A DNA stretch of 63,999 bases, the filler included, from Sphaeroforma arctica JP610 (lineage: Eukaryota), in the NCBI RefSeq assembly GCF_001186125.1. It is 7 parts of 5 records of this genome, joined end to end, with 100 filler letters (N's around TTAATTAATTAA, not from the genome) between each part and the next. Parts side by side here need not be neighbours in the genome. Positions count along the whole stretch, not along the records: positions 1 to 20,052 come from NW_014040521.1; positions 20,153 to 34,129 come from NW_014040520.1; 5 more parts are not named here. One strand, written 5' to 3'. The position numbers were made by a program, and so were the translations under genes. This document shows positions 5,408-31,080 of the stretch, piece by piece; position 1 is the stretch's first letter, and every line of letters starts with the position of its first letter. The notes below the pieces were generated by a model. It ran no database searches and was not told the DNA's origin. It saw nothing but the letters and a program-made list of their open reading frames with translations.

Positions 5408-6697
5408 TACATGTACTAACGCAGCAGTTCCAACATACATTGAGCACAATCCTGGACGGACTACCAGTACATCACTACATCGATGATATAGTGATTGCCA
5501 GTGATGATTACGATGAACACAACCGTACAGTAAAGGAAGTCATCAAGCGTCTTACATACCATAGTAATAAGCTGAACCCAGCCAAGTGCCACTTCGCAAC
5601 TGCGGAGGTAATGGTACTAGGCAAGAAGGTATCAGCGCATACCATCGATGTGAATTATGTGAAACAGGCAAAGCTGCTAGATTGGCCAACCCCACAACGT
5701 TACAAGAACATAGCGTCAGCATTAGGCTTAGCAAACTATCTCCACGAGCACTTCCCCAACTATGCCCACATTGTAGCACCGCTACGGGAGCTCTGCAAAC
5801 TCAAACCGAATGAGCTAATTGGTGAACGGTGGGATATACATATGTTGTTGGAAGTTGTTTCCTAGTTACTTTGAACTAGCACAACAGATATTTGGTCTAA
5901 ATAATGTATATGTGTTTGCGGGCCCACAGAACACACAACTACCTCGATTCTGATCCACAGATGACAAGAAGGGGCGTTTAATCACGACTGGTCGTTAGCG
6001 GATGGATGGATGAACCCATCTTGGAAATTGATGCACAAGTTGCTTAGGAAGATCAAGACAGAGGAGGCATCCGCCACAGTAGGTTTACCTTGGGTGCCAC
6101 GGGCGCCATGGTTCGACTTTCTCAAGCAGCTACTTCAAGCGGAACCGGTACTGGTGCCTAGAACACCACATACATTCCTAAAGTTTGGTAAGTATGCGTG
6201 CGGCAAGACACCTTGGAGTCATACAGTGATAGTGAGACTAAGTTCATCCAATAATTCAAAACTGGATCCCCTCTTCTCACAGCGACTGAGTTTCGCAGAG
6301 CCAAGCCATATACCGTATGTAAAATATTTGGACACAGCACGAGATATATCGGTCGCCATGGCTGAAGGAGAAGGTCAGCCGTCAAGATACGCTACGCAAA
6401 GGTTTCCACCCGATGATCAGTATTGATACACGATACCCATGGGATCCAGTCTATAGCTGGGTTACATCCCGATGCCGATTCTACATCCTATACGTACTAG
6501 ATGTAGCCACGGGCTTTTCGATCCTTCGCGCCACCCCGGACAGAACCAAGGAGACAACCGTACAAGCCTTAATAGGGACTTTTGGTGCACACGGATTTCC
6601 ACACATGATACAGACGGACATAGGGTCGGAATTCACATGTAACATGATACTGGAACTTTCAGTGAAGGATGTATGGATGCTACACAAGGTGTCACCA
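5408..6697 (+). mobile_element. Ty3/Gypsy element A, pol fragment (RT YIDD - [RNase H deleted] - MTase - integrase)
   Basis: ORF 5440-5865 has HHYIDD, KCHF, VLG and WPTP. ORF 6413-6778 has VLDVATGF...QTDIGSEF (integrase core), cut off by an LTR at 6698. Confidence 0.9.
5846..6240 (+). pseudogene. Dam-like DNA N6-adenine methyltransferase domain in element A
   Basis: CWKLFPSYFELAQQIFG...VFAGPQNTQLPRF*...AFNHDWS...WMNPSW (6013-6024)...LPWVPRAPWF...TFLKFG...KTPWSHT; contains a stop and a frameshift. Confidence 0.8.
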
Positions 6698-7022
6698 TGT
6701 AGAGTATGGAGAGTAGCTGGAAGGTACGAGATAAAAGGATACAATAGACCTCTTCTCAAGTACGGTTATCTCAGCTAGGAAAAGTCCCTAGGCTGAGAGA
6801 ACCGAGCTGAGTCTTTATTTGTGTTTTCATTAGACTCAGGATTTACTTGAGTGTTTCTCTCACACGCGGAGTCCCGGTATAGCTTACCGGTTCTACCGCT
6901 AATATTTCTGATGACTCTAATATCAGAAATATTCCAACTCTAATTCCACAACTCAATATTTGATTATTCTGGGTTTTGAGATTTAGATTAGCTTCTTGAT
7001 AATCTGGTCCCTAGATGCTACA
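6698..7022 (-). mobile_element. 3' LTR of element B (325 bp)
   Basis: TGTAG...CTACA termini. On the minus strand it is preceded by a G-rich polypurine tract (plus-strand TCCCCCCAA at 7023-7031) and contains AATAAA. Confidence 0.85.
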
Positions 7023-9206
7023 TCCCCCCAACTTTATGCTTCTTAGCCTGCGTAGGTGTAGAAAGTGACATCTTACAGTACTAGATTATCTAGAAGTTGG
7101 TGTTTGTATACAGGGAAAATCTTGTCCCTTAGGGGGCATAAGATAAAATACCTGCCACCATTATCTATTACATATTACCGATTAATTAAATTTATACTAT
7201 AGCAGGAGTCCTCTACCACGCTCATCGGAGTCAGTCTTCACCGGTGCTCTCGGTTGGTCTCAACTTGGCTTAGGAAAACGCATCTTAACGGTGGCTCTGC
7301 AACCGAGTCTCTGGTCCTTGTTCCTCTGGTGTGTGGGGGGAGCATGCTTCTAGGCGAGAAAAGTGGGAGTGTCCTGTGGTATCAGTGAGACTTGCTTAGG
7401 TCCCCCGCCTCGTGCACTGTCGGTGGTTTTAGGGTTTAGGGTTTAGGGTTTTAGGGTTTTTTGTCGCTGGCTTCTTTGGCCTTGACTGCCTTTTTTTACG
7501 TCTCCGGCGTTGACGGTATGTTACCTGGGATCCATCACCTCGGATGGACGGCCTGTCGTCGACTATCGAGGAGAACTGAGTCTCTTCGTTTGGATGTACG
7601 TGATTGTTGGAAGTAAATGCTTCCGGAGCATTGGCCTTTTTTACGAGGCCAAGTAGCTCATCACTGATCGAGTCAGGATATTCGGGGGCTTTAGTCTCAT
7701 CAAGGTTACAAACAAAATACCCGTTGCCCTCCCTGCATACTATTTTGTATGGTCTGCCATTTGGTGCTGTTAACTTGTTCATTTCACCTTGATAGCGGAC
7801 CATGACAAGGTCCCCTTCGTGGAAGTTTACATACTTCTGTTGGTATTTTCGATCGTATGCTGCTCGGATCTTCTCTTGATACTGTGCAACATTGCTCTCT
7901 AGTTGTGGCCTAATGGCTTTTTCTAGATTTTGCAGTCGCTCTTCTCAAGATACTATAGTACTGGATGCGGTCACTGGCTCATTGTAGTCCGTGAGTTGAT
8001 TCTGTCTGTGACCAAAGTACACATTAAAGCGCGGTGACTTGTGTCTTCTGGATGTACGCAGATTATGGCCCATCTGTACGAATGGAAATTGTGAACACCA
8101 GTTACCTGGATTCTGTTCAACAAATTTTCATAACAGTGGCATGAGGTCTCTATGTGATCGTTCGTTCGCGCCTAAGACTTTAGGTTGATGCGGCCGAGTG
8201 ACTAAGTGTTGCATTGGCGCTTGTTCAACAACTTTTGAGAGTATGTTGTTAACATATTCCGTGCCTTGGTCTGTTTGTATGATTTGTGAAAATCCATATT
8301 CACACATAGTTGGTGCCAGTGTGCGTGCTATGATAGCCGCTGATTTGTCCATCATTGGATGCAAAATGACGTACGATGAATATACATCAAGCCATACTAA
8401 CACGTATGTGTGTCCTCTATTGGAATCCAATAGTGGCCCTATGCTGTTTACTTGGACTCTATCGCTTGGATATGCGGCTGTAATTGATTGCAAGGGGTGA
8501 AACTCCTTTTTGTGTATTTTATTTTTGAGACATGTTATACATCCGTCAATGAACTTGTGTACATGTTGTTGGATATCAGCCCAATCATGTCCATCTGCTT
8601 GCAACTAGTGTACTGTTTCCTCAGGAGTGGAATGTCCCAAGTTGTGGTATTGCTCGATGATATTCATACGTGTCTCATATTCTGTTGACTGTGGTGCGTC
8701 TCCAGAGTGAACTGGTTCTGACGCTGCAACGTGTATGGCAGGTTGTTCCCGCGTCGAGTCAAAGTATGGAGACTTAGCTCCTATCTTTGCGACTAATATG
8801 ATACCCCATGGGGTCTTGCCACAAGCCTTCTTGCCCTCTTTGAGGAACGTATTGTTTTGTGTTTTCCACTAGCATCGGGTCTTCTTCTTGTAAAGACAAG
8901 GACTTTAGAAACCACGAGGCATCGGAGTAGCATGGTATACATATCGTGATGCTGGTTACCTCTTCAATGACTTTGTCAAGGACATCAGGTATGAGTTCCC
9001 ATGGTGGATTCGCCCATGCATTCACTTCCTGCGCCCACTTTTGTTGTAGCGCATTCTGTTCTTTGATGTAGTATTTATCTGTGTGCGCATTGTGTGCCGA
9101 TGCAAACAGATCTACCGTGAACTTCCAAAACCTTCGTTCTGCTTCTTGATAGAATCTGGGGTGTAACATCCAGTCTATAGCCGATATGGTTATTGTTAGC
9201 GTGCGG
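7023..9206 (-). mobile_element. Ty3/Gypsy element B, 3' half (MTase - HHCC/DDE integrase - basic tail)
   Basis: ORF 8128-8604 has CITC, LDVYSS, QTDQGTEY and NERSH; ORF 7429-7803 has a GRPY (GPY/F-like) motif; the MTase ORF is 8774-9169. Confidence 0.9.
8780..9175 (-). pseudogene. Dam-like DNA N6-adenine methyltransferase domain in element B
   Basis: DWMLHPRFYQEAERRFWKFTVDLFASAHNAHTDKYY...NALQQKW...AWANPPW (8999-9010) ELIPDVLDKV...CIPCYSDASWF; after a frameshift, TFLKEGKKACGKTPW. Confidence 0.9.
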
Positions 9207-11705: not shown

Positions 11706-11999
11706 TGTAATAGTTAGTTACGCCTTTGCTGCGGATGCCTGAGTAATAACGGAGCGGTTCGCCCCCGTATCAATGAGTGTGCGCATCGCATGTCCGTTGA
11801 CTTGTAACGTAACATATACACGGTTGTCAGTAGAGAACAATTTATTTTTTCCTGTAATAGTTAGTTACGCCTTTGCTGCGGATGCCTGAGTAATAACGGA
11901 GCGGTTCGCCCCCGTATCAATGAGTGTGCGCATCGCATGTCCGTTGACTTGTAACGTAACATATACACGGTTGTCAGTAGAGAACAATTTATTTTTTCC
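11706..11999. repeat. Exact 147-bp tandem duplication spanning the protease DTGA motif
   Basis: 11706-11852 and 11853-11999 appear identical on direct comparison; the segment is single-copy in sibling element G. Confidence 0.9.
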
Positions 12000-13893: not shown

Positions 13894-16800
13894 AGTATGT
13901 ATAGCCTCCCCTATCCGTTCTGCATATAATGTCTTTAAATTCAGAACGATCAAGAGGGGCATTAGAGTCATATCTAACTTGCGAGTATAATTTCTGTAGT
14001 CGGAATACGATTTGTGCTTATATTAAGCGCACTAGAACCATCGGGGTTATTTACCTCGTATGTTCCATTTTTAGTGTCTGCTACAGAGATTATATATGGA
14101 CCTATCCATTTAGATGTTAATACAGTAGCATCGGAATTACGTTGACGGATATTAACTCTGTCACCGACCTGATACTCTGCTATCTTCTTGGTAGTGTTCC
14201 AACGTTTTTGCCTTTTTATTAAGGCTATATTGCGTATTTCTCGCAAGCAAGGATATACAACGTTATGAATACGTTGTACCTTCTCTAACCATGGTAACTC
14301 ATGGTGATCAGGTTCGTCCTTGTTAAAGGTTATTTGTAACTCACTATATCTGCAACTAAAATAGTGAGCGAATGTAGTTCCTGTAACCGGATCAGCACAC
14401 TCGTTCATCTGTGTTTGACCCGCTTAAGGTGGTACGGCCAATCATCTGCATCATTCGTTAATGCAGTACGTAAGATCATTCGCGCCTTGCGTTTGCGGTT
14501 CATACGGCACACCTCTCTTATGGCATATGCTTGATACGAGTACTAGCGATTCCATTACGCCATCGCAGAACTCACTACCGTTATCAGTGCACATAATACC
14601 TGGCCACCCGTGGTCAGCAAAGACTTGGCAACATAATTCTGCCACGGTCTGCGTATTCTTATCCTTTAATGGATAGAGCAAGTTAAACCGTGACGGCACA
14701 TCAAAGAAGTGGCACACGTAACGGTCGCCTGTGTGCTCGGACGTGGGCAGGTCAACCAGATCAATGATGACCCTGCGCCATGGATCATCTTCAGTCACAC
14801 TTTTAAGCGGTGCGAACCCATAGCGCTTGATCTGATTGAGATCACAGTCTGTACATGACTGATATACTCTGTCAACTAAAGTTGCCAGCTTAGGGTGCGC
14901 GATCCCATAGTGCGTCTACTACGTTCTGGTGCTTCAGCTTATGATTTTGCGTCAGCCAAGCAAGAATGTTTTCATCATTCTGCTCCTCCAGAATAAAGGT
15001 AGGGTGTTGAGAATCCACTTGCGTGGCCTCTAAGTCTGTAGTGTTTCCAGACTCCTGTCCTGCTTTCGCATGAGCGTCGTTAGTGTGCTCATATGCGTTA
15101 GATACACCTGACTTATTAAATAGTCGCAATATATGTGTATACGCTTCAGGATTGTCTTTCATTAATCCCTTTAAAAATAAGGTTTGAAAGACCTCGGGGC
15201 TTGGACTTTATGTTATTAAACAGAGTCCTAGCTAGAGACTGACGCTTCTTAACAGTAGTGTCAATAGTAGATTGTATTTCTTGTGCACAGACTTCAAGTG
15301 CTGTGTTGCCTTTGAACTGCTTAACGTTCAATTTAGTGGAGAGTGGAATCTCAGATTCTTTGACCCTGCTAAGGAAGGTCTCAGAAGGGGTCCATTTGAT
15401 TGTTCCAATGGGACCTATACGACATATTATAGTATGTCTCCAGGGCGTCTTCTGGACGGCTCGAGTACCCTGATATAGGAAGGTATCTACTTCTCTATCT
15501 AAATATATTGGCTCGCATTGCATCATGCTTATTAATTTATTGAGCCATGGAACTTTACTCCGTAATGGGCAACACAACGTGATGGTAGCTTTATGTATAT
15601 GAACTTAATATAATAGCTGGGCAATTAACTGCCATGGTGGATTAGCCCACGCATTATGTTTGGAGAGGTCTATTTGAAAGGAGTCTCCCAAAGGATGATT
15701 TAAAGTCCTGTAATTCTATAGTTGTGCATTATGATGTGCAACAAACATATCTATGGTATGTGGCCTAAATATCTTTTGAGCCAGTTCAAACCACCTGGGA
15801 TTACACTTCCAGTCAGTGGCTAGTAACTCACGTACGGATTTATTATAGTCCGGTACGAAGCGTGATAACATATCCGGTAAATGGTTATGTATTCCTGGCA
15901 GATGCTGTATATCAAAATGAAACTTTGATATTGTATCATGCCAGCGACTAGTAATTGTGAGTCGGGTTTGATCTCTTTCATATATTGAAGAGATTTCTGA
16001 TCACACATCAGCGTAAATGCTGTTCCGTATAAGTAATCTCGGAAGTGTGTTAGAGTTGCCACTATGGCTAATAGCTCTTGTTTAACGGTTGGTAATTCAA
16101 CTGTGAAGCATTCATTGCTCGACTAAATAATTGTATATATCTAGGTTTGTTATCCATAACCTGATATACTACTCCTCCTAAGGCTAAGTCGGAGGCGTCC
16201 GTCGCTATTTCAAACGACACGTCATCGACAGGTCCTTGTACAACAGGGGTTTGCTGGACTGCGTGTTTGAGCGCTTTATATGCGTTATCACACTCTTTAG
16301 TCCATAAGTCTCCTAGTTTGCCTTTATGCCATCTTAAGTGTCCAAAAGGTTTAAGGTAGTCAGCTAAGTGTGGTACTCCATCTGAAAAGAAGTTTACAAA
16401 CCCACACATGCTGTTAACATCTCTTCCTGTAGTTGGTGTTCGCCAATATAACAGGTGTTCTACCTTACCGGGGTTTTAAACCCTAAAAACAGATATACGG
16501 TAGCCTAAGAGCTGTATTTCGCTCATGGCGAAGTGACATTTCTTCTCGTTAATCTTGAAGTTTTGTTCGTTGAGTCTCTGAAGGGCTCGTCTGACTAATG
16601 CGGCATGTTTGCGTTTAGTCTTAGAAAAGACGACTATGTCATCTATATAGACTTTTTTTTAGGGTTTAAACCCTTTCCTCCATTACTTGTTGGAAGAATG
16701 CTGGTAAAGAGTGTAACCCGAAAGGTGCACCTCTGAACCTGTATTGTTTATCTTTCCACGTAAAACTAAAGTATTTACAATGTGGTTCATATACCTGCAT

Positions 16801-19800
16801 TTGATGGTATCTTTGTGTAAGGTCTATAGTTGTAAATACTGTAGTACCTTTCATCCTTCGCAGTAGCTCGTTAATACAAAGTAAGTGAAAGCTATGAGTC
16901 GGCAAAAATTTATTTATTGGACTCATATCTAAACATCTCTGACTTTCTTAAACGATCCGTCAGAGTTATGTTAGTCTACGGCTAGCAGTGCCAAGTTAAC
17001 TGGCGTCTGTTGATAGTTGAATTCTATCACTCCATCTGCTAGCCATTTCTCAACTTGTTCTTTTACCACAGCCTCGTGTCTCCCGGATACACAGTTCCTT
17101 GAGGGACACTTTAACTGTGTAAAGTCCACCTTGGTTAAGTCAAGACTGGCATACCCGTCGTTCATACGGAATTTTGCCCAATCCGTGATCGCTATCTTCT
17201 TATTAACTAGAATCAGATCTATGATTTTGTTCGCAAAGTCAGGTATTAATGCCTTGACTGTGTCTGACGGGGGCTTATATGGATTCAGACAGTTATCGTC
17301 TGACTGATTCTTTAATGGATCTATGTTCCTTGGTAGACCAGTTACGGTTAAACCTAGAGTGAGTAAATCGCTCATTCCGACTATAATGTCGTACTTCTGT
17401 GACATCTTAACTATCACAGCTTGGGTAGTGATACCCCTTTATCATCGGCCAGGGAGATTTTAACATCTGTGGCCATGGTATCACACTTAGAAGTTTTATC
17501 ATCAGCTAAAATGAGGTGAGTTGTTTGTGTTCTCCTTTCGATATCTTTCATTAATGCAAAGCGATCGGATATACATGAAATTTCTGAACCAGGATCAATC
17601 AACGCAAGGATTTTATTTCCATTGCAGTATACAGGGATTATTACACGCTCATCTAAAGAGTCGTTGTATTGTCTGTGTAACGATTGTACCTGGTAGAATT
17701 TCACTCCAACTTAATGTCGGGCTTTTTGTCACAAGACTTAGTGTGATAGCCATTGGTCTTCTCACACTTGTCGCACTAAATAAGAAAGTGTGTACAGGTG
17801 GATGCATGCCTGCCATTTCAATAACCGTTAGGGGTCAATTGGTACATGTCATACCCACACTGTGGGTCGGCACATTTCTTAATGTCCTTAAATGGAGGTT
17901 CCTTGTCCTAGGATTGGGTCGCGTGGATAGAGTGGAGTCGCGAGTACGTGTATGTTGGGGTCTCTCGTTTGAGGTCTGCCTGAATACGTATCCGTGATCG
18001 GTGTGCTCCCGCGGCTTCTTAACAGCCACTTTTCCCTTCGATGTTACTCAGTGTGCGGGGAAAAGGGTGGATACAGTATCATAAAACTGTTCCCACGGAA
18101 TTCGGGATAGATTAAACTTTGTTTCATGTCCCTTGTCTCGAGCCTTAGTCGCATGTTTACGTCGCAACTCGGTGTACAGGCTCTCACGGTCGTTATTTCC
18201 TTTGTTCTTACAGAACATGTGCATAACCAGGAACTCGTACCATCGCTGTGCCTTGTCCTTCGTTATATCTGGACGTTTCAGGTCAGCATCTAGCTTCAGA
18301 ATATAACTCTGCATGGGCGTGTTCTCAACTGGTTTAGTTAAAATAGAACTCAGTCCTGGGCTACGCATGTCCTTACTTAACAAGGATGTAATCAACCAAC
18401 ACACAACTGGCCAGTCACGACAAGTGTCTAGCTCATGTTGGTGTCGCTGCAGGATCAAATAACTTGTACCTGTAGGGTCAAACGTCTGCATTAAAGCAGA
18501 GATCCATTGCTGGGGAGCGATATCATTTGTCTCCAGCATGACCGTAAACGCATTAAGCGTACGGGTTAGCGTGTCGAGGTCATGGTTGTTTATAAACTCG
18601 ACCTGCTTACTGTTGGCATCCCAGTTCGACTTAAGTCGACTGATCTGTCCTTTGTACTTCTGGTTATCCCTGTGGTCTTGTCCACGTTGGGCCTGAAGTA
18701 GCTGATCGATGTGCTTTTGCTTGATCGCAATCATATTAGTAAAATATGATACAGCCTCAGCAAGATGCGCATCGTGGGCGATTTACATTTTAATGGTATA
18801 ATCGTCGACCGATTTGATGAGTTCGGTCACCTCGTCAAAGTGAAAATCCTTTGCGGGTTGATGTAGTGCTGCGTGATCGAAGCGATTAAATTCGACTTCG
18901 TTAACACGTTTATGGGGTTGTTTATTACCCCTTGTAAAGTCCATGGTCGAGGCCTTTCGGTGCTCTGTTCCTCGGATAGTGGTTGGTATTATAATCTTGG
19001 GTGATTCATGCGTCTGGGTAACATACCCAGTCTTAACTGGTTTCCGACGATTGTCATCCCCTATGGGTAAAAGTGGCGGAGTATTTCTACCTGCCTCTGG
19101 GTCTATAATACCCTCAAGGACGGGTGACTCACGGCCGGGTGTCAGAACAGGCGAGTAATTAGCCTGAAGTTCTGGTGGTAGTACCTCGTAAGGTATAGAT
19201 ACGCTGAGCACATCTGGCTCATATGCCACAGGTGTAGCGCTCGAGTCTTTACGTTCTTCGGGCGTAATTGCCTGTCGACGTTTTGTACACTTCTGTAGGG
19301 CTTCAGTAATGCCCGGAGAAACATGCTCGCGTAAGTGCTGTGTATGTTTTCCTGATCTATACAATCGATCTACATGTTTAACAGTCAAGTCTTTCATAAG
19401 GGTAGCTAACTGATTCTTAAGATAAGTGTTTTCAGTAATTAACTTACTCGTGCGCGTTAACTTAGTAGTCTCGGACGTAGATTCGGGTTTACCACTTGAG
19501 CTTGCCTCCTCTTCTGGTTCCATTATAGGTTCCTTCTGAGATTTGTCCTTCTCCCCTATAATTGGGGACTCCCTTATAATTGGGAACTTTTCTTTCTGAG
19601 TTTCGTCAGAAGAATGGGTTGGGGCGTCTTGAGACGTGTCCCTTGTCTCACTTCTTGGCTTCGTAAATGTAAGCTTGAAGTTGAGGCAATAGTTGGCCCT
19701 CAGGCTCTGTCAGTGGGAGTAGTCTCCTTAATCGGAGAGGCTACATCCTTATCTGAAGCATTGTCCTGTTGACTATTATTGTCGGAGGCAAGAGTTTCGG

Positions 19801-20052
19801 CTACAGTGCGGTTAAACGCATCAGCAGCGGCAGCGGTTTCTCTCTCCATCTTCTTCTTTTCAGCTCTACGCTTCTTAGAAGAAGTATTGTCTTTCTTGGT
19901 CATAATATTAATTTATGACTGCTAGCTGATTTCTTAAGGACTAGCTTGGACAATTGTTTTTGTGTGGTAGTTAATCTACCTTGACGCTTAAGTAGTCTAA
20001 GTAATTAATACCTTTGCTAACTTTAAAATGTGTAAGATTCGGTCTATCAAGA
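13894..20052 (-). mobile_element. Ty3/Gypsy element E, near full length and degenerate: LTR-D end, gag, PR, RT, RH, MTase, IN
   Basis: 20031-20052 matches the reverse complement of the LTR-D 3' end. Gag pieces span 19903-17701. Motifs in order: LIDPGSEIS (PR); IDLTQRYHQ, PFGL, YIDD (RT); ATDASD (RH); NPPW (MTase); IIDLVDLP...TDNGSEF (IN); KWIGPY. Confidence 0.93.
15415..15817 (-). pseudogene. Dam-like DNA N6-adenine methyltransferase domain in element E
   Basis: TDWKCNPRWFELAQKIFRPHTIDMFVAHHNAQL*NYRTL...SFQIDLSKHNAWANPPW (15632-15643) QLIAQLL...CCPLRSKVPWL...TFLYQG...KTPWRHT. Confidence 0.9.
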
Positions 20053-20491: not shown

Positions 20492-23400
20492 ATTATGAAT
20501 TACGTATGGACCCAACAAAGGCTTCATGGCTTTGGTGGTCGCTCCCTGTGCGAGTATCATGACAAAGTCCCCTGGCTTAAATTCAGTTAAATCAAACTTC
20601 TGCATCTGGTCAGTGGCCTCCGCCATAGCACCAGTGTATTTGATAGTTTTCTGATGAAGTTTTGGCAGGATCGTCTTCTCACGGTCATCCAATCGCTGAA
20701 GCCTTGCATCATTCGTTGTTGGAATATGATCAGGTAAGTCATCAGTCATGTCTGCAAAAGGAACATGGCGGCGACCAAAGTAAACACTAATTGGTGCTGA
20801 CTTGTGCCGACGTGATATCCGAAGGTTATGGTAAAGCATAGTACAAGGTAACGCTCATCCGACAATTCCGACAGCCAACACAAACGGCGCGTACACATTT
20901 GTGAATTCTTTATGTCGGCGCTCTGTCGCACCCAATGTTTGAGGACGGTATGGTTGAGATGTCTTGTGTATAATTCCGAGTGCTCGTGTTATAGACCTGA
21001 CAATGTTGTTGACAAATTCAGTCCCCTCATCACTTTGAGTTTTCCGAGGAAAGTCATACTCACCGAATACCGATACTAACTCTGTCGCCACCGTCTTAGC
21101 ATCTTTTGCAGGCAGCGCCCGTAGAATAGAAAATCCGGATGCCACATCCAAGACATGTAGAATAAACTTGTTGCCTTTAGTAGATGTCACTGCCATCGGA
21201 ATGGATCCATTTGAATATAATCCCATGGATAACGGACCGTGATGCTCATTAAAGGATAAAATCCCTTTTTCATAATGTCATTGCCTAAACATGTGCGATA
21301 TAGTTTAAGGACCTCTTCCGTAATTGTAAGCATTTGGTCCCAATCGTGTCCATCGTCTCGCATCTGTTGCACTGTAACCGCTGGATCAGGATGACCTCGT
21401 TCCTGAAACTGCCCAGTAAGCTATACCCGACGATTAGCTTCTTATTTCCAGGGTGATTCATTACCGTCGCCCCCGCACAAATCTCAGGTACCTGTTCCGC
21501 AATCTGGCGTGTACGTCAGGTCATGGCTGGTTGCGTCCATGTTTCTTGATAACGATTACTAGCCTCCTCACACATCGGTACTTTGAGACCCTAGTTACAC
21601 CAAAATGATGGAGAAACTTTATAGCCTATTAGAGGGCCAATGCGTACCACCACCGTATGTTGCCACGGATACATACCACACGCCTGTGTGCCATGCTTCA
21701 AGAACGTACGGGCTGTTCGCGGGATAAGCAATGGATCTGCTTGCATCATCGATAGAAGCAGAGGGAACCCGCTCGTGTGTTCAATGGGAGACACACTGTC
21801 GCGGACGCCTTGTCCTCCAATACTTTACGAAGTACCTTACGAATAAGGCGCCAAGGTGGATTCATCCATGCATTTTACTTGCTCCAGTCAAATTTAAAAG
21901 CGCCTCCGTCTTTGTCGTAAGACCAGTATTGTCGTAACTGAGCATTGTGGCTTGATGCAAAGGCGTCAACGTCGTTAGGTCCGAAATGGTTTTGAACCTG
22001 ATCAAAGAAGTCGGGATGCAACTTCCAGCACGATGTGTAGAAGATGGCTGGAAAGTTGATGTCCGCTGTGCCCTCATGGACCCGGCTCCACATGTCTGGT
22101 AATTTATTCAATTCACCTGGGACATGTGTTATCACGAAATTGAATTGCGCAATGATGTGATGCCATCGTTGCAGCATGCTGTTCAATTTCAATTGGGTGT
22201 TCATGTATATCAGCGCCTTGTGGTCCGTGTGCACAGTAAAGCGTTGGCCTATTAAATGATCATGGAAGTGGACCAATGCATATGAGCGCTAACAGTTCTT
22301 TCATTAGTGTCGCGTATATCTGCTCCGACTTGTTGAGAGTCTTCGAAAAGTACATCAGGTAGTGCTTGCGGCCGTCAAATAACTGAAATAGTGCACCTCC
22401 AATATTATAATCACTGGCATCAGTCTCTAACTCGAGTGGAACTCCTTCAACCGGAAGATTTTACCGCACCGCAGACACGATTGCTTCCTTCATCTGATCC
22501 CATGCCAGTTGATGTTTTGGCTTCCAACGATCCCCAATCGGTTCCTTCGGCTTGAGTTTCGAAAAACGATCGTAGTGGGGCCACTTTATGTGCAGAGTTA
22601 GGTAAGTGCTCATGTAGAAAGTTCGCCAACCCCAGTGCAGATGCTATGTCCCTTTGACATTGCGGCACTGGCCAGTCGATCAACCGTTGTTGCATCTCAT
22701 GATCAACGTCAATTCCTTTCGCAGAAACCTTCTTCCCCAGGACCATAACCTTGCTTACTGCAAAGTGACACTTCTTCTGGTTATGCTTAAAATTGTTCTC
22801 GGTAAGCCGTCGGATGACCTCTTTCACTGTTGCAATATGTTCCTCGTTGTTATCAGATGCAATTATAAGGTCATCGACGGAGCACTGCACGTCTAAACCC
22901 GCCATCAAGTTACTGATTGTGCGCTGGAATTGAGACGTGAGTGTCGACAATCCGAACGGAGCCGAAGTGAAGGAGTATTAGGGACTGTCCCAAGTAAACA
23001 AGAACATATGTTGTAAGTCCTCGTGTACTGGAAGGCGATGATATGCGGCCGATAAATCTAACGTGGTATAATACCGTTTGCCTTTTAAGTTACTAATAAT
23101 CTCATTGACCTTCGGTAACGTAACTGGTCTCCCGGAATAAGGGCGTTGATCTGTCGCAAATCCAAACACACCCGAACCTTAACGGGTAGATTCACAAGTT
23201 CAAACGTACAACCTGAAGCAGACTTTGTACCATATTGAACCATCGTGGCGTGTGTCTTGCCGAGGCGCGGAGTGCGGAAAGCTTTGTCCGCCAAGTATAT
23301 GTAGCTATCCTTAGCTTTGGTGTAATAGACAGTTGCGCCTGTGCTGCGGATGCCTGAGTAATAACGGAGCGGTTCGCCCCCGTATCAATGAGTGTGCGCA

Positions 23401-25184
23401 TCGCATGTCCGTTGACTTGTAACGTGACATATACATGGTTGTCAGTAGGGAACAATTTATCTTTCACTGCAAAACAATTTAATTTGCCGTTCGATCAAAT
23501 GTCACGCACACGTTTAACTCAGACACCCCAACATCTCGATTTGAGCTTGACTCCTCTTCCCAATCGGCTGGCCCTTGCTCGGCCTCCATTAACTTATCTT
23601 CACTGTCGACATATGGCTCGTCGACCACATCATGAATATGCATCACCTCATTCTCTCCGACATCTGCTAGCGTCAGATCAGGCATCTGATCACCCCAATC
23701 CACGAGATTAACTCGAGGGCGGAAGTTATTACACGACGCCTGTTGCGTGCGCGTGGATGTCCCCCCAGCCGATGTACGGTGTGGTGGCGCATCCCCATAT
23801 TGTGTATGGTTGCCCGTGTTAGTTGATGTCGGTGCTCTCAATAGCTTACGACAACGTGGTGCATGTGCTGCGCCAAGAGGGAGATTCTGCTCATATGACC
23901 GACAACGAGCCCTAGGGTTCGATACTGATGGCGCATGAGAATTAGCTCGTGTGTTCGCCTCCACACGCACTCGTGTGCGTGAACGTGATCCCCCAGGGAT
24001 TGATGTGTAGCAGTTGAGAAAGGTTCGCTCGACGGTATTCTGCCGCTTTGTCAATATTCACCCGAAATACATCACGCATTTGTGCCGCGGAATATTCTCG
24101 TCAGTTAGGGTGCATATGAAAAGTATCACGTTATCCTCCAGATCTTGTTTGTGTGTGCGTAAAATATGAGCAGTGGCGTCGTGAAACGACATGGACTGCA
24201 ATTTTTGTTCGTTTTCCACGATAAAATCCAACAACGCCTGGGTGCTCCTTCTTTCTGTAGTCTGCATATGGATCTGGTCTGGTTTGTGAAATCTTGCATT
24301 CTTATGCCAATCCAAGATAAACGCGTGCAACTGTATCTTCTGCGGATTATCAAAATAAAATACATCACGAATATTCACCCAAAATACATCACACATTTGT
24401 GCCGCGAAATATTCTCGTCAGTTAGGGTGCATACGAAGGGTATCACGGTATTATGTACCCCCCGCAGCTTGATTGATTAGGTTGAGCATACCATGGTTGC
24501 GGTATACTTGTAGCGAATTCTCATACTGTCGCATAAAGTCTACTATGCGTTCAAAATCCCGAAGTTGTGTCTCTAGCGGCACCGAAGGGTTTAGCTTCAT
24601 GCAAGCTAATACATTTTTGTATGCGTTATCCTCCAGATCTTGTTTGTGTGTGCGTACAATAGGAGCAGTGGCGTCCTGGAACGACATAGACATTATTGTT
24701 CAATTTCCACGATAAAATCCAATAACGCCTTGGATGTTCCTTCTTTCTGTAGTCTGCATATGGATCGGGTCCAAGATAAACGCGTGCAGCTGTATCTTTT
24801 GCGGATTATCCAAATAATAGCTGCCCTGTGGATTAGGTGGCCATTCCTTGGGTGTCCGTTTGTCTACCGTTATTGAGCAAGTCTTCAACGTCTCATTAGA
24901 TGTGCAAATTAAACCCTTCAACGATCGAGCTTCCTCTGTGCGCCCCTCAGCTTCTGCTTGCATCCCTCAGCTTCTGCTTGCATTATACGTTGGGTGAGAA
25001 GGAATAATTGCATTTTCATCTCTGCCGCAGTAGATTCAGTGATGCACACCTCAGTAGGTGGTGATATCTTACGCCAATCCTGCGTTTCACCGGGCTATTT
25101 TGCTTCATGTTGATAGCCCCGCTGTCAGGTATATGGTCGGTTGGTGTCGACTCTATCTGTGTTGGGTATGTTGGGTATTGGGGA
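20492..25184 (-). mobile_element. Ty3/Gypsy element G (gag with internal duplications, PR, RT, RH, MTase, IN), degenerate
   Basis: LIDTGANRS; RVCLDLRQIN; LDLSAAYH; SVDD; TDHKAL...HVPGELNKLPD (RH); NPPW; VLDVASGF...SDEGTEF...TERRH; LLGPY. Confidence 0.92.
21635..22033 (-). pseudogene. Dam-like DNA N6-adenine methyltransferase domain in element G
   Basis: Continues in frame from RNase H in ORF 21875-22276: CWKLHPDFFDQVQNHFGPNDVDAFASSHNAQLRQYWS...AFKFDWSK*NAWMNPPW (21851-21862) RLIRKVL...TFLKHG...PWQHT. Confidence 0.9.
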
Positions 25185-26085
25185 TGTAAAAATAGCGGGT
25201 TCCTAATAGTAGTTGCACAATTAACGTATTTTATAAACGTATTATCGTGTTAACGGTTTACGTATAATACTGGAATACGTTTAACGAATTGGACAAGAAC
25301 AAGAATTGAGATATTCAAGATTCTGAACATGTGATAGTACTCAGTAGAGTATGGGACTCTACTGTGGACAATTAGGTGGTTTTCCAAATATAGATTGGTT
25401 TTTCCACTGAAATTAGAATTATACATAATATTGAAATGATACAAATCTGACACCTGAAAATGACACTTTGGGAATCTCTAAATAACGGGAGTGCCACGAG
25501 AGAGGGTCTCAGGCATGAAATGGTTGTTGGTACAAACCTATGGTATAATTCGATAATAATCTCAGAGCAAGAAAATCCACGGAGAAAAGGACAGGATCAG
25601 AGTTGTTAGAATTTAGGACAACATGGTTTTGATTCCTCCTAGCCAGCCAACTAGATGTGCCCGTCTATGCCTTAAATGGGATGGAGAGCTAGGTACCAAG
25701 TGATGGGGTTTAGGTGCAGATGTATACTGCATCAGCTGGGTGTTTTAATTTTAATTTTAATTTTCTTAAGTTGGACTTAGAGATATTTTATTGGTTAGTT
25801 TGAGTAGATAATTGTTTCGAGGCGTGAAATGTAAAATATGCGGCCAATGAAATGATATCTAGTCTTAGTAACTAAAACATAAATAAATCTAGACCGAAGT
25901 AGTGAGTGATTAAAGCGGAGCATATAGACAATAGTCTCAATCTAAATCCCCTAATCTTTTGCTCATTACCAAGGGCTGAAGCTAAACTTATTTAACATTT
26001 TGCATTTTAACGTTTTAACGTAATATCTTATTAACATAAACGTCTTGGTATCGTATAGTCAGCCTAGAGGAGACTGACTTTTACA
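25185..26085 (+). repeat. 5' LTR of element F (~900 bp)
   Basis: TGTAAAA...TTTTACA terminal inverted match; the first ~305 bp are repeated at 33824-34129; shares the AGCCAACyAGATGTGCC motif with LTR-D. The right boundary is inferred because the 3' LTR runs into a gap. Confidence 0.8.
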
Positions 26086-29000
26086 TATTTTTAAGTTTAT
26101 AATACGCTATCGATATTATGACGAAAGGAAATAATAAGGCAGCGAATGTAGCTAAGGCTGCAAAAGTGGATTGGTTTACTGTAGGCGATGAAAAGCAAAA
26201 AGCACACCGGTACAACCGGTACCAACTCTGACTAAACGAAAATGTAAGAAGTTGGTTGACTCGGGTGTAGGTGCATCCGGAGGTAATGTGACTACGGAGC
26301 CGCAGAAGCCACCAGCGAAGAAGGCGAAATCTCGAAAAGGAAAAGCCGAGAAAACGCAATCCTCGGAAAATTCAACTTCAGAGGAAGTGCGACATGCACT
26401 GGAATCAGATGTATCATCTCCACCAGTGGACACGCGCAAAGCACGTAGGCGAGATCCTACTTATCACATGATAGCAAGGGATAGGAGAGCCTTCCTGAAG
26501 GACTACCAACCAATGGTACATGAATTGAGACCTACTAAGCAGCGGAAGAAAAAGCAAGCCGCAGCGAAGGATCAAAATCAGGGGAGGATGATTTGGAGGA
26601 TGAGCCAACAGCACAACCACTGTTGGATCAACCCCAAATCAACGTATCGGAATAACAACTGCGTTTCGTGGATACAGGTCCAGATGATGTGGACCATAAA
26701 TTTCACCATCAGGACGACGATTCGGACAGCAGGATTGACTCACAATTCCTGCGTTTACTCAAAACACCACTCCGACCGGCTTGGCGACAGAACTTTGATC
26801 TGGGCCATGAATATCAGACTCAGATTGATATTCAGGAGGAGGGTCAACGAGAGTTGATCCGACAGCGGGCCAACAGGGCATGGATGTTTCGAAATACGTA
26901 TGGTACGTACTTTCCGGACGTAATGAAGACCAAACCAGATGGTACCATCTCACCGAGGTATGTGACGAATGCAGCGGTAAGAAAGTTTGGGTACGATTTG
27001 TTTAGGGATACTAAATATTACAATCGGCTAAAATTAATGAAAACTGACGAATGTAAGCAAGCACACAAACATTTCCGTCAGTTTCAAAAGATACTGCCGG
27101 AGGTATTCGGAACTAGGAGAGATGGAAGTTTTGCATACTTAATTTGGTACGCAATTCGGGATTTTCTTGTAGACCTTCCCGACTTGATATCAAACCATTT
27201 GGCACTCTATCAAGCCATATTGGCGTTTGAGATGTTGTCAGACAATGGAGGGGCAAGCAGAATCCGATCTTCACCATTCGAAGCTCAATCTTCTCCTGGA
27301 TGGGACGCAACAGCAATGTCGCGAATGGCATCTGAACAGGAGCCTAATCCAAATCCACCACCGGAAGGAAATCCACAGAATGCCCCAGAGGTATTCCCGA
27401 AGGACAACCCGACCGAAGAGCCTAAACCTGATCAGGTGGAAGTTAGAAAGTCCTTGTCGTCATCGGGAGACAGTTCGCCCCCAGCGAGTATCCCAACGAC
27501 GACAAAAGATGCTGTCCCATCCGAAGCGTTCATTCACATTGAACAGGTCGATGGATCAAAGGATGAGGCAGACAACTGACTGCATGGTCAGATGCAGTTA
27601 GAAAAGAAGGGACCAGATCACTCTAGTAGTGATTTGAAAATTGCTGAATTCACTGTTCAAATGAACAAGGCCGAGACAGCTTCACTCGAGGCAATGGATC
27701 TACGTAGGATTGATGCCGCTAGTCTTTATATGACAATGGCTACGCACCTCCAGACTAAGATTGATTCAGAACTAAGAGTGATTCAGACCGAGAAGGCTGT
27801 GGAAGGCAAGAAGTTTGTAAAGGACATAGGTAAACTACCAACGACATACAGATCTGATCGAAAGGACCGGAAGGATCCAATCGATACTAGCAGTCTGGCG
27901 TTGTTATCTAGGTCTTTGAAAGAGTTTGGACAGATTATGCTTACAGCCAATCTATGGAAGAACCTATGGTTCGAAGCAGCGCAGCAGAACTTTAAGCCGT
28001 CCTCTTACAAGTATAACAAGTTAGAGAAGGCGAAACAAGCGACCACTAAGCTGAAAACGTGGAAAGTGTAGAGTGAGATGATCGTTCACTTATTTTCGAC
28101 GGATCTTCGACCGGAATTGCTTGTATCGATCATGATACCACCGGAAGAAGGAACGCCGGTGTCCCACTACTTATTAAAGTTGGACACACACATGTCACGG
28201 GCACAGACTCAAAAGATGTCACCTGACAAACTATCCATGTGTGTACTATGGGTGCAGACAATCTTTTGGTCAAACCTACATAGGAGAGATCAAGAGATTC
28301 TGTACGCCGATATGCATCAATCTTACCCGGACAAGGTACGAGAGATCTCCATCGAAGGACCTACCTACGGCATAATGAAGCTAGCGAACTGAACCTGGAC
28401 TGAATTTTACTCGAAAGCGGATCAGACGTTTACCAAACGCCCTAGTTCCGTGGTGAAAGAAGGTCAGCAGCAATCTTACCGGAGGATCAGGCAATGATCG
28501 AAACTCTCAGTCCACTAATGGAGGTCAGAAGGTACACAAAGGGGGTGACAAGGGTGGCAATAAGAACAAAAATACAAATGGTTCTGAAGGCAATAAGATC
28601 AATGTCATCCCTAAGGGTAACCAGACCAACAGAAATGAACCGCCGGCAGGCAACCTTAAGCCCAGGCATAGGGAGGCCAAGAACTGTAGTGAGACTGATT
28701 GCAATTGGCGAATGACCCGACATGAGCCGAATGGCAGATGGAATGGAAGGCACGCAGAAAGGTGTGAGCACTTTATCGAGAAGTGTGCCGACTGTACCGG
28801 GATTGGATTTTACCACAAGCATACATGCAAGGTGAAACCAAAAGTCGAAGTCAAGTGACAAACATACCGGGTCTCAAAAGGACGTACCTCAAGACGAGCG
28901 TGTAATCCTTGACATACGAGTTAACGGACATGAAATAAAAGCGTTATTAGATCCGGGCTCACAAATTTCATGTATATCCTCTAGAATCTGTAAAATGACA

Positions 29001-30709
29001 GACGTAACTCGTAAGTCAGAGCCAACTATGTTGAAGCTGGCTGATGAAAGAGATATCACTTGCAGAGAAATGACAGACCAACGAACTACAGTTACTAAGG
29101 CAGTCATATGTAGCACATCACCAGACTATGATCTCATAGTAGGTATGGGTGATTTATTGTCATTAGGTATCACAATTACAGGCTTACCTCCTAACATTGA
29201 ACCACAGAAGTATCAGTCGGACGACAAATTGTTGAAACCGGTATAAACCTTCGAAGACTGTGCAGGAGATGATCCCTCACTTCACAGAGAAACTCAAGGA
29301 CTTGATTTTCGAGAACGACAAGATTCGGATCACGGACTGGGCTAAGTTCAAATTCAATAACGGATACGTTAGTCTAGACCTGACGAGAGTAGATTTCTCG
29401 AAGCTGAAGTGTCTTACACGTAACTATGTTGCATGGCATCATGAGCAGGTCGTACGAGAACAGGTTAAGCATGGTTAGATGACGGAGTGATCGCAGTCAA
29501 CTATGAGCCGACTCCCGTCAACCTAGCGCCTTTAGCCGTCGACCAATTCAACTCTGACGGGACGCTGAAGAAAATTCGGGTATGTTTGGATATGAGCCCA
29601 ATTAACGCTTTGATACCGACACACAATTTCACCTACCAAGGATAAACGAACTACTCAGACGCATGGAGGGAGCTAAGATATTCTCCACTATCGACCTGAA
29701 GCAGGGCTATCACCAGATGAAGATCTACAAACCACACCGGAAGTATTTCACCTTTACCTGGGAGGGTCAGCAATATTCTTACAAAGGTACCCCCTTTGGG
29801 TTACACATGTTATCTGCGTTCTTTCAACAAATCATGCTAGACTTGTTTAGGGACATGGACAATGTACAAGTATACATTGATGACATTGTGGTATTCACCA
29901 AAACCAAAGAGGAGCACAACAAGGTTGTGCGAGAGGTTCTAGACAGACTCAACAAGCACAACTTTAAGGTCAGCAGTAAGAAATATCACTTCAGTGTTAA
30001 CGAGATTCAGCTGTTGGGTTACCGAGTATCCGGGGATGGAATCATGATCGATCCCGGGAAGGTCGAAAACTTGCTAGACTGGAGAACTCCTACCACGGGT
30101 AAGGATGTCAACAGCATGTGCGGATTCGGCAACTTTTTGTCTGACGGAGTACCACACCTGGCAAGTTATTTAAAGCCCTTTGGATATTTGAGATGTCATA
30201 AAGGCAAACTAGGCGCACTGTGGACCAAAGACTGTGATGACGCATTTAAGCAGCTCAAAACAGTGGTTCAACAGGCATCAGTAGTCCAGCCAGCAAAGGA
30301 TGGTATTCCATTCATGGTAGCAACAGACGCATCCGACATGGCACTCGGCGGCGTTCTGTATCAAATGATTGATGGGAAACCGAGATATGTACAGTTCTTT
30401 AGCAGAGCTATGAATTCGTCTCAGATCAATTACCCAACCGTGCAACAAGAGCTTTTGGCTATTGTTACTGCACTCACTCATTTTAAGGACTACCTATATG
30501 GCACACACTTTAACGTGCTATGTGATCAGAAGTCATTGCAACACCCAAAGGACATGAAACCTAACTCACAGTTAGTCAGTCGGTGGCATGACACGATCGC
30601 AAAATTTTCTTTCAGCATAGCACACATACCAGGTATTCACAATCACTTTCCCGACATGTTGTCTCGCTTCGTACCAGACTTTAACAAGATGGTTAGGGAG
30701 TTACTAGCT

Positions 30710-31080
30710 ACGGATTGGATGGTCAATCCTAGGTGGGTTAAGATCGCAGACAACATACATGGACCACATACCATAGATATGTTTGCCGCTCATCATAATA
30801 CGCAACTGCCGAGGTACCGGACACTGGAACATCCGAAAGGAGACGGATTCCAGATTGACTTTTAATACCACAGTTGCTAAATTATGTACATATTCAAGAT
30901 GCTACCATCACGTTGTGTTGTCCCCTAAGACACTCAGATAAATGGCTACCATAGTTGATCTCAATGATACAATGTGAGCCGATCTATGTGGATAGAAAGG
31001 TAGATACTTTCCTCTACCAGGGTACCCGGGCAGTCCAAAAGACGCCTTGGCGACATACTATTATATGTCGAATAGGTCCA
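30710..31080 (+). pseudogene. Dam-like N6-adenine methyltransferase domain in element F, catalytic NPPW segment deleted
   Basis: TDWMVNPRWVKIADNIHGPHTIDMFAAHHNTQLPRYRTL...FQIDF joins directly to LIPQLLNYVHIQDATITLCCP...TFLYQGTRAVQKTPWRHT. Element E has SKHNAWANPPWQ at this junction. Confidence 0.85.

What the first reader, a model, noticed from the sequence alone, without database searches (positions are those of the whole stretch)
5846..31080. Ty3/Gypsy LTR retrotransposons carrying a Dam-like N6-adenine DNA methyltransferase upstream of the DDE integrase
Seen: five copies (5846-6240 +, 8780-9175 -, 15415-15817 -, 21635-22033 -, 30710-31080 +) from at least three diverged families have the same ~130-aa domain just before integrase. 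In E, F and G it follows RNase H directly, and in F and G it is in frame with it. It contains W-x-h-[HNF]-P, a SAM-binding-like DxFA-x-x-N, a catalytic motif (NPPW in B, E and G; NPSW in A; deleted in F), CxP...W and TFL..G....PW. Established: [DNS]PP[YFW] is motif IV of N6-A/N4-C amino-methyltransferases, and a phage-Dam-like MT domain after RNase H is typical of DIRS (tyrosine-recombinase) retroelements. These elements instead have a protease, an HHCC-DDE integrase, direct LTRs and a PPT, i.e. Metaviridae architecture, where I am not aware of such a domain being standard. Inference: a Gypsy lineage captured the MTase and kept it under selection. It may deposit 6mA on its own cDNA, for example to mimic active chromatin, evade silencing or mark self.
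Basis: partly seen in the sequence, partly recalled or inferred. Interest (0 to 1): 0.92.

Follow-up and report, generated by a model that had tools for sequence, protein, structure and literature searches.

The report
Dead gypsy retrotransposons carrying adenine methylase
Five broken copies of gypsy-type jumping genes, in what is likely the one-celled animal relative Sphaeroforma, carry a real, conserved domain predicted to methylate adenine; a 2026 preprint already described such elements in that organism, and what the domain methylates is still untested.

Summary
Five decayed Ty3/Gypsy copies carry a Dam-family (PF05869) domain before integrase, in frame after RNase H in E, F and G. One label is swapped: F keeps NPPW and G has lost it. 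No copy is intact, but intact relatives encode protease–RT–RNase H–Dam–integrase in one frame. The domain is as constrained as RT (pN/pS 0.22 vs 0.23).

It is not new. A flanking host exon is identical to Sphaeroforma arctica, and RT and Dam trees place the copies with Abeoforma elements. This is the "Ichthyosporean DAM-LTR lineage" of a May 2026 preprint (10.64898/2026.05.21.726589). This scan also met DAM-LTRs on other DNA.

Three small additions:
(1) The lineage carries a divergent C-terminal chromodomain, which the preprint says it lacks.
(2) The modelled domain's closest solved structure is the RNA cap methyltransferase PCIF1, not E. coli or T4 Dam, so an RNA substrate stays open.
(3) Two database Copia polyproteins also carry the domain.

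Most likely mechanism (inferred, about 45%): the domain methylates adenines on the element's own reverse-transcription intermediate, seeding a host-maintained permissive 6mA mark.

The parts
5353..5832 (+). Copy A: reverse transcriptase fragment (RNase H missing)
   Evidence: Pfam RVT_1 E 5e-11; tblastn with P0016
5846..6243 (+). Copy A: Dam-like domain; one stop, one frameshift, motif IV reads NPSW (6007-6024)
6353..6730 (+). Copy A: integrase core fragment
   Evidence: Pfam rve E 7e-6
7492..7599 (-). Copy B: remnant of the C-terminal chromodomain-like stretch, middle deleted relative to P0016
   Evidence: profile score not significant, iE 0.61
7528..8856 (-). Copy B: integrase region (zinc finger, core, C-terminal part), 65% identical to P0016
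   Evidence: Pfam rve E 1.5e-11, Integrase_H2C2 E 0.01
8779..9187 (-). Copy B: Dam-like domain, NPPW intact (8999-9016), frameshift near 8855; RT and RNase H absent upstream
   Evidence: Pfam Dam E 2e-14; PHROG 111 DNA methyltransferase E 8e-15
13983..14915 (-). Copy E: integrase
   Evidence: Pfam rve E 8e-7; tblastn with P0026, 51%
15410..15820 (-). Copy E: Dam-like domain, full length in one frame, NPPW intact (15632-15649), two stops
15823..17710 (-). Copy E: protease, RT and RNase H, with several frameshifts
20031..20052 (-). Copy E: last 22 nt of the 5' LTR (ends TTACA); the rest is lost in an assembly gap
   Evidence: same end as the solo LTR 31957-32783
20498..21429 (-). Copy F: integrase
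   Evidence: Pfam rve E 9e-11
21630..22036 (-). Copy F: Dam-like domain in frame after RNase H, NPPW present (21851-21868), one stop and one frameshift
22040..23494 (-). Copy F: protease, RT and RNase H
25185..26085 (+). Copy G: 5' LTR, 901 nt, TGTAAAA...TTTTACA
   Evidence: first 310 nt are 89% identical to the 3' LTR
26192..28389 (+). Copy G: long gag-position frames (no Pfam hit; gag identity inferred from position)
28836..30706 (+). Copy G: aspartic protease, RT, RNase H
   Evidence: best PDB sequence match Ty3-G Gag-Pol E 6e-57
30707..31080 (+). Copy G: Dam-like domain in frame after RNase H; 37-nt deletion removes motif IV; one stop
31528..33255 (+). Copy G: integrase (zinc finger and core), interrupted by a solo LTR
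   Evidence: Pfam rve E 7e-12
31957..32783 (+). Solo LTR, 827 nt, TGTAA...TTACA, with 4-bp target-site duplication ACTG, nested in G's integrase; same end as E's 5' LTR
   Evidence: public contigs join across it, skips 831
33292..33447 (+). Copy G: divergent chromodomain-like stretch at the integrase C-terminus, one stop
   Evidence: profile A2 iE 1.3e-8; the 34-aa open piece alone has no Pfam hit
33805..33820 (+). Copy G: polypurine tract (G16), 3 nt before the 3' LTR
33824..34129 (+). Copy G: 3' LTR, cut by the assembly gap at 34130
35730..35963 (+). Host gene exon (Mn superoxide dismutase), used to place the host lineage
   Evidence: 100% identical over 78 aa to P0189, named Sphaeroforma arctica by its source; next best identity among the 120 listed is 87%

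Best explanation
These are five decayed copies of Ty3/Gypsy retrotransposons whose Pol carries a Dam/PCIF1-type methyltransferase-fold domain between RNase H and integrase; in active relatives the domain likely methylates adenines on the element's own nucleic acid during reverse transcription, which would seed a 6mA mark that the host keeps on the new insertion.

Shown here: the domain, the Gypsy architecture, membership in the ichthyosporean DAM-LTR clade, purifying selection, and a retained NPP[W/F] motif in intact relatives. Confidence in this part is about 0.95.

Inferred: the domain is about 135 aa with no separate target-recognition domain, so it would be held on its substrate by the adjoining RT/RNase H. 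It would then act on the RNA:DNA hybrid or nascent cDNA inside the particle rather than on free duplex DNA. After integration the host ApT methylase AMT1 would maintain the mark and favour transcription. This is the preprint's model; about 0.45.

A divergent chromodomain on the integrase may steer integration (inferred).
For: Identity: Pfam Dam E 2e-14. Intact 1288-aa relatives have protease-RT-RNase H-Dam-integrase in one frame and are 63-66% identical to B's domain.

Trees: RTs of A, E, F and G lie in a starred clade (100/99) with Abeoforma whisleri proteins P0002 and P0024. All five domains lie in a starred clade (99/93) with the same proteins and S. arctica SARC_00333 and SARC_09892.

Selection: E vs G pN/pS is Dam 0.22 (95% 0.14-0.32), RT 0.23, RNase H 0.20, integrase 0.26; A vs F is Dam 0.37, RT 0.40. 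NPP[W/F] is present in 16 of 16 non-window clade members shown.

Structure: the model (pLDDT 93) matches N6-adenine methyltransferases.

Preprint: S. arctica and A. whisleri DAM-LTRs are more often 6mA-marked and more expressed than other LTRs.
Against: No activity has been shown. The preprint's E. coli expression of DIRS and DAM-LTR domains gave no rise in 6mA. Its 6mA enrichment is a correlation and was scored at ApT, the host AMT1 motif, so it could follow transcription rather than cause it.

The best structural match is an RNA enzyme, PCIF1 (Z 10.4 vs 8.3 for T4 Dam). Iyer et al. 2016 judged DIRS copies of the domain likely inactive.

DIRS elements keep the domain in hosts without AMT1, which the AMT1-seeding model does not explain. 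Synonymous sites are saturated, so the pN/pS values are rough.
Confidence: 0.45

Rival explanations
1. The domain is a PCIF1-like RNA methyltransferase. It would mark the element's own transcript (cap-adjacent or internal N6-methyladenosine) or the RNA primer, to protect it or to sort it between translation and packaging. The 6mA seen on insertions would be a by-product of transcription.
For: The top Foldseek hits (ranks 1-6, E 3e-5 to 9e-4, TM 0.61-0.66) are PCIF1/CAPAM, then KsgA/Dim1; E. coli Dam is rank 47. VIA-align ranks PCIF1 first, Z 10.4, rmsd 2.9, 138 aligned. 16 of 77 aligned relatives also score on Pfam PCIF1_WW at E<=10, best 1e-4. Iyer et al. 2016 put the DIRS domain in the PCIF1 clade. 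The DNA assay in E. coli was negative.
Against: By sequence the domain is much closer to phage DNA methylases: 75 of 77 hit Pfam Dam and PHROG 111 gives E 8e-15. My PDB sequence search with the family profile found no relative, so PCIF1 may only be the nearest solved fold. The domain lacks PCIF1's large helical insert. A shared fold shows no substrate.
Confidence: 0.25
2. The domain is kept for a non-catalytic job, such as binding nucleic acid or SAM, or spacing and folding within Pol.
For: The enzyme assay was negative. Iyer et al. 2016 predicted inactivity in DIRS. Unchecked scan notes report other lineages that keep the domain without the catalytic motif (a lead only).
Against: In this clade NPP[W/F] and the DxFA stretch are retained across members that are often only 30-45% identical to copy B. 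D32, A35, N39, P67 and P68 are nearly invariant in 77 relatives.
Confidence: 0.17
3. The domain is a free, sequence-specific duplex-DNA methylase that marks integrated copies or host DNA, like phage Dam.
For: Its sequence kin are phage DNA methyltransferases.
Against: It has no target-recognition domain. The E. coli genomic DNA assay was negative. GATC is neither enriched nor depleted in the element region (250 observed vs 246 expected; a weak test).
Confidence: 0.1
4. The arrangement is an artefact: DIRS fragments nested into Gypsy copies, or an assembly chimera.
For: The region is a nest of broken, interleaved elements with assembly gaps.
Against: The same junction occurs in three lineages and in intact single-frame relatives from independent sources. 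No tyrosine recombinase was hit in 224 open frames scanned. RT and Dam trees recover the same clade.
Confidence: 0.01

Closest known systems
Ichthyosporean DAM-LTR lineage (Fernandez-Moreno et al., bioRxiv 10.64898/2026.05.21.726589; Pirum gemmata, Abeoforma whisleri, Sphaeroforma arctica)
   Same: Ty3/Gypsy organisation with a Dam-family domain and NPP catalytic triplet; same host lineage; RT and Dam group with A. whisleri and S. arctica proteins.
   Different: The preprint says this lineage lacks chromodomains. Here 8 of 8 clade members that reach the C-terminus, including A. whisleri P0024, carry a divergent chromodomain-like stretch. The window copies are all broken. The preprint's sequences and supplements were not available, so identity with its named families was not tested.
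DIRS1-type tyrosine-recombinase retrotransposon MT domain
   Same: Homologous domain in the same place, after RNase H.
   Different: DIRS have a separate RT clade and a tyrosine recombinase. They lack the protease and DDE integrase seen here (the last point recalled, consistent).
PCIF1/CAPAM cap-specific adenosine N6-methyltransferase (6IRW, 6IRX)
   Same: Closest solved fold; placed in one clade with the DIRS domain by Iyer et al. 2016.
   Different: 16-18% identity; no WW domain and no helical insert; substrate of the element's domain unknown.
Phage Dam-family DNA N6-adenine methyltransferases (Pfam PF05869, PHROG 111)
   Same: Best sequence profiles.
   Different: Embedded in a polyprotein. 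It is not the E. coli/T4 Dam type with an inserted target-recognition domain (T4 Dam Z 8.3, 107 aligned).
Chromoviruses (Ty3/Gypsy with an integrase chromodomain)
   Same: Chromodomain-like fold at the integrase C-terminus.
   Different: The aromatic cage is incomplete, as in group II chromodomains. The RT tree held no named chromovirus, so phylogenetic membership was not tested.

Membership tests
Ty3/Gypsy LTR retrotransposon | Pol order protease-RT-RNase H-integrase | tested here: met
   E, F and G show this order with Dam inserted before integrase
Ty3/Gypsy LTR retrotransposon | RT of Ty3/Gypsy type, not DIRS | tested here: met
   Best PDB match Ty3-G E 6e-57. The tree separates 32 LTR-type rows from 26 DIRS-like rows at 98/97. 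DIRS labels were inferred from architecture; no named DIRS reference was included.
Ty3/Gypsy LTR retrotransposon | DDE integrase with zinc finger | tested here: met
   Pfam rve in 5 of 5 copies; H2C2 weak in B, E 0.01; H..H..C..C in 4 of 4 intact relatives checked
Ty3/Gypsy LTR retrotransposon | Direct LTRs with TG...CA ends, PPT, target-site duplication | tested here: met
   G LTR pair 89% over 310 nt, TG...CA on the 5' LTR, G16 PPT; solo LTR with 4-bp TSD. Shown for 1 of 5 copies plus the solo LTR.
Ty3/Gypsy LTR retrotransposon | Primer binding site after the 5' LTR | tested here: inconclusive
   No TGG-type site follows the LTR in G or E; self-priming complementarity is not above shuffles, 263/500 and 41/500
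DIRS retrotransposon | Tyrosine recombinase | tested here: not met
   0 of 224 open frames hit a phage-integrase family; tblastn with a DIRS-type recombinase fragment gave no hit. Frames under 62 aa were not scanned, bar one.
Dam-family N6-adenine methyltransferase (PF05869) | Profile score above the curated cut-off | tested here: met
   Copy B 54 bits vs 28.1; intact relatives 40-56 bits
Dam-family N6-adenine methyltransferase (PF05869) | Motif IV [DNS]PP[YFW] | tested here: met
   NPPW in 3 of 5 window copies (B, E, F), NPSW in A, deleted in G; NPP[W/F] in 16 of 16 clade relatives
Dam-family N6-adenine methyltransferase (PF05869) | Rossmann-type SAM methyltransferase fold | tested here: met
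   Model of P0017's domain, pLDDT 93; top hits are N6-adenine methyltransferases
Dam-family N6-adenine methyltransferase (PF05869) | Methyl transfer to adenine in DNA | not testable with these tools
   The preprint's E. coli assay was negative
Ichthyosporean DAM-LTR lineage | Ichthyosporean host | tested here: met
   Host exon 100% identical to the S. arctica protein over 78 aa
Ichthyosporean DAM-LTR lineage | Dam domain in one clade with Abeoforma and Sphaeroforma DAM-LTR domains | tested here: met
   21-row clade at 99/93; RT clade at 100/99
Ichthyosporean DAM-LTR lineage | No chromodomain (as stated in the preprint) | tested here: not met
   A divergent chromodomain is found in G and in clade members, including the A. 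whisleri ones. I read this as a correction to the description, not as non-membership.
Ichthyosporean DAM-LTR lineage | 6mA enrichment and expression of insertions | not testable with these tools
   No modification data were available here
Chromodomain | Sequence and fold likeness to HP1-type chromodomains | tested here: met
   Profile of 10 segments hits HP1 at E 4e-11. 8 of 10 match Pfam Chromo at E<=10, best 4e-6. All 40 fold-search rows shown are chromodomain-containing chains, E from 0.03.
Chromodomain | Complete aromatic cage (HP1 Y24, W45, Y48) | tested here: not met
   Read from alignments: W45 is W in 9 of 10; the Y24 position is aromatic in 6 of 10; the KGY loop is not kept. G has no aromatic residue at Y24 and F at W45.

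The most novel reading that the evidence does not exclude
The so-called Dam domain of these Gypsy elements, and of DIRS, is a PCIF1-like RNA methyltransferase that marks the element's own transcript, not its DNA. Ichthyosporean DAM-LTRs are cryptic chromodomain-bearing elements. The same enzyme has also been captured by Copia elements, which I did not find described.
Probability: 0.2. Interest if true: 0.72.

Novelty: already known. Interest (0 to 1): 0.27.

Why it matters
The architecture, lineage and likely host are already in print, so the finding adds examples, not a new system. The remaining value is in three points. The domain's substrate is an open question, and intact natural relatives (P0016, P0017, P0026) make it testable. 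The structural link to PCIF1 suggests an RNA or hybrid substrate that the published assay did not try. The overlooked chromodomain means this lineage pairs a predicted methyl writer with a possible chromatin reader, like the green-algal DAM-chromoviruses. If a retrotransposon wrote its own activating mark, it would be a clear case of a mobile element exploiting host epigenetics.

Tried and rejected
Whole-genome search for intact copies was not possible: no genome is held for this window.

PDB sequence search with the 77-row Dam alignment found no relative; 2 chance rows at E>=0.3.

Expression: no RNA holder was listed among 24 runs. Runs guessed to be RNA are contigs only, so nothing is concluded. 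Laid contigs show that the E and G families are multi-copy. At position 15605, inside one of E's in-domain stops, nearly all family depth reads another letter, so that stop looks private to this copy. They could not show what other copies hold across G's deletion.

Self-priming instead of a tRNA primer site: not above shuffles. 4-mer bias as a sign of a target motif: GATC observed/expected 1.02; nothing notable except mild CGCG depletion.

dN/dS proper: dS was saturated in 6 of 8 comparisons, so pN/pS is reported. The two between-lineage Dam pairs gave higher values, 0.53 and 0.57.

G's chromodomain piece alone (34 aa) has no Pfam hit. B's remnant is not significant. The chromodomain fold search had no match at E<=0.001.

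RT tree: 9 of 63 database RT rows were left out as near-duplicates or short pieces. Copy B was read in a wrong frame in the alignment and corrected for the tree.

The repeat 13120-13873 was considered as E's 3' LTR and rejected because it lies on the opposite strand. The protease at 11158-12065 was considered as B's own and rejected: it belongs to an F-like fragment, 85-99% to 23179-24534.

Literature searches that found no earlier description of a Copia-Dam, of a chromodomain in this lineage, or of a PCIF1-like activity test. The library lacks most subscription journals, and the preprint's figures and supplement were not seen.
Full report
OBSERVATION. Six-frame translation and tblastn find the domain at all five stated places. 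A profile of relatives finds these five loci and nothing else in the window. Copy B's open frame scores 54 bits on Pfam Dam PF05869 (cut-off 28.1, E 2e-14) and E 8e-15 on PHROG 111, DNA methyltransferase.

ANATOMY. The left half of the window is a nest of decayed LTR elements. G is the most complete: a 901-nt 5' LTR (25185-26085, TG...CA), gag-position frames, protease, RT, RNase H, Dam, integrase, a G16 polypurine tract, and a 3' LTR from 33824 that is 89% identical over 310 nt and cut by an assembly gap. An 827-nt solo LTR with a 4-bp target-site duplication interrupts G's integrase, and its end matches the end of E's 5' LTR. E and F show protease-RT-RNase H-Dam-integrase. A lacks RNase H, and B is a Dam-integrase fragment. 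All five copies have an rve integrase core, and 0 of 224 scanned open frames hit a tyrosine recombinase. No tRNA-type primer site was seen.

RELATIVES. Intact single-frame polyproteins with the same order exist. P0016 and P0017 (1288 aa) are 63-66% identical to B's domain. P0026 is the relative of E and G. The named relatives come from Abeoforma whisleri (P0002, P0024, P0025) and Sphaeroforma arctica (P0018, P0019). A host SOD exon beside the nest is 100% identical over 78 aa to the S. arctica protein, so the host is that species or a very close relative.

TREES. In the RT tree (58 rows; 9 of 63 database rows left out as duplicates or fragments) A, E, F and G fall in a starred 16-row clade (100/99) with the Abeoforma elements. 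That clade is separate from 26 DIRS-like rows (98/97). The DIRS label is inferred from architecture, with no named reference. G's best PDB sequence match is Ty3-G (E 6e-57). In the Dam tree (56 rows) all five copies lie in one starred clade (99/93) with the same relatives, in three lineages: A+F, B, and E+G. Deeper nodes are weak, so I did not test the donor.

SELECTION. Between E and G, pN/pS is 0.22 for the domain (95% 0.14-0.32), 0.23 for RT, 0.20 for RNase H and 0.26 for integrase. Between A and F it is 0.37 versus 0.40 for RT. Between-lineage Dam pairs give 0.53 and 0.57, and synonymous sites are saturated, so the values are rough. NPP[W/F] is kept in 16 of 16 clade relatives shown. The breaks look post-insertional: at one of E's stops nearly all family contig depth reads another letter.

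STRUCTURE. The model of P0017's domain (pLDDT 93) matches N6-adenine methyltransferases. The six best Foldseek rows are PCIF1/CAPAM (E 3e-5, TM 0.66), followed by KsgA/Dim1, with E. coli Dam at rank 47. VIA-align gives PCIF1 Z 10.4 (rmsd 2.9, 138 aligned), DIMT1 9.4 and T4 Dam 8.3. Iyer et al. 2016 (PMC4738411; passages read) already placed the DIRS domain in the PCIF1 clade and thought it inactive. The 2026 preprint does not mention PCIF1. By sequence the domain is closer to phage DNA methylases: 75 of 77 relatives hit Dam and 16 of 77 hit PCIF1_WW weakly. The substrate is therefore open.

WHAT IS KNOWN. Fernandez-Moreno et al., bioRxiv 10.64898/2026.05.21.726589 (whole main text read; figures and supplement not seen, and they may bear on the chromodomain and Copia points) describe DAM-LTRs as the first Dam domains in non-DIRS LTR elements. 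One of their five lineages is ichthyosporean, in Pirum, Abeoforma and S. arctica. They report more 6mA and more expression on these elements than on other LTRs. Their E. coli methylation assay was negative. Their model has the domain marking reverse-transcribed intermediates that host AMT1 then maintains. De Mendoza et al. 2018 (PMC5890265; passages) cite the DIRS precedent. The scan's own notes list 23 findings of this kind in at least 3 genomes; I had found the preprint, before that look-up.

ADDITION 1, CHROMODOMAIN. The preprint states that the ichthyosporean lineage lacks chromodomains. Yet the 8 RT-clade members that reach the C-terminus all end in a chromodomain-like stretch. I picked 10 such segments by eye. 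Their profile hits HP1 at E 4e-11, and 8 of 10 match Pfam Chromo at E<=10, best 4e-6. The model of P0016's segment (pLDDT 76) returns chromodomain-containing chains in all 40 rows shown, though at E>=0.03. The profile finds G at 33292-33447 (iE 1e-8), while G's open piece alone has no Pfam hit. In full-length proteins the score falls below usual thresholds (P0016 E 0.015), which likely explains the miss. The aromatic cage is incomplete, as in group II chromodomains (PMC3350952; passages), so histone reading is not assured.

ADDITION 2, COPIA. Two database polyproteins, P0121 and P0142, have the RVT_2 type of RT and a Dam domain with NPPW. The preprint's main text never says copia, and searches found no description. 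This lies outside the window and rests on protein records only.

MECHANISM. Shown: a conserved, predicted-catalytic N6-adenine methyltransferase fold, fused after RNase H in a Gypsy Pol. Inferred: lacking its own target-recognition domain, it acts on nucleic acid held by RT/RNase H during reverse transcription and seeds 6mA that the host maintains (0.45). Rivals: RNA methylation, PCIF1-like (0.25); a non-catalytic role (0.17); free duplex-DNA methylation (0.10); artefact (0.01).

VERDICT. Novelty: already known. Interest 0.27, for the open substrate question and the small corrections.

Noticed in passing
database proteins P0121 (Dam 656-727 of 1838 aa) and P0142 (Dam 619-684 of 2098 aa): Copia-type polyproteins (RVT_2, Pol_BBD, SH3_retrovirus) carry a Dam domain with NPPW: after the protease barrel in P0121 and before it in P0142. 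The two domains are sisters (100/97). The P0121 cluster has members from two sources. Not in the preprint's main text or in searches.
   Followed up: partly
database proteins P0092 and P0135: Long Gypsy-like polyproteins with an exonuclease/endonuclease/phosphatase domain followed by Dam upstream of a very divergent RT. The preprint mentions Euglena DAM-LTRs with LINE-like RT but not this domain.
   Followed up: no
window 31957-32783 and 13120-13873: A high-copy LTR: a solo copy with a 4-bp target-site duplication inside G's integrase, and a second 89% identical copy next to an assembly gap. Its end matches E's 5' LTR.
   Followed up: partly
window 26086-26110 (+) and just below 20031 (-): Neither 5' LTR is followed by a TGG-type tRNA primer site; both are followed by a similar T-rich stretch. 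The priming mode is unexplained; self-priming was not above chance.
   Followed up: partly
window 11158-13106: 5' fragment (gag-protease) of an F-like element, 85-99% identical to 23179-24534, with a perfect 147-nt tandem duplication at 11706-11999.
   Followed up: partly
window 4604-4966 (-): A further weak RT fragment (Pfam RVT_1 E 6e-4) on the strand opposite copy A.
   Followed up: no
window 5166-5408 and 6697-6933: An inverted pair, 76% identical over 248 nt, brackets copy A and may explain its truncation.
   Followed up: no
window 34964-62583: Intron-rich host genes: Mn-SOD (34964-35963 +), cytochrome bc1 14-kDa subunit (41406-41711 -), RGS-like pieces (47190-48436 -), a Rad51-like piece (54693-54974 -), PPR repeats (57754-59600 +) and cyclophilin (62287-62583 +).
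   Followed up: no
window 7430-7460 (-): A short run of telomere-like CCCTAAA repeats lies just after copy B's integrase end.
   Followed up: no
window gaps at 20053, 34130, 54373, 57270, 60609, 62585: Each gap is two runs of 44 N, 12 nt apart; in the two gaps read (20053, 34130) the spacer is TTAATTAATTAA, an assembly linker rather than biology.
   Followed up: no
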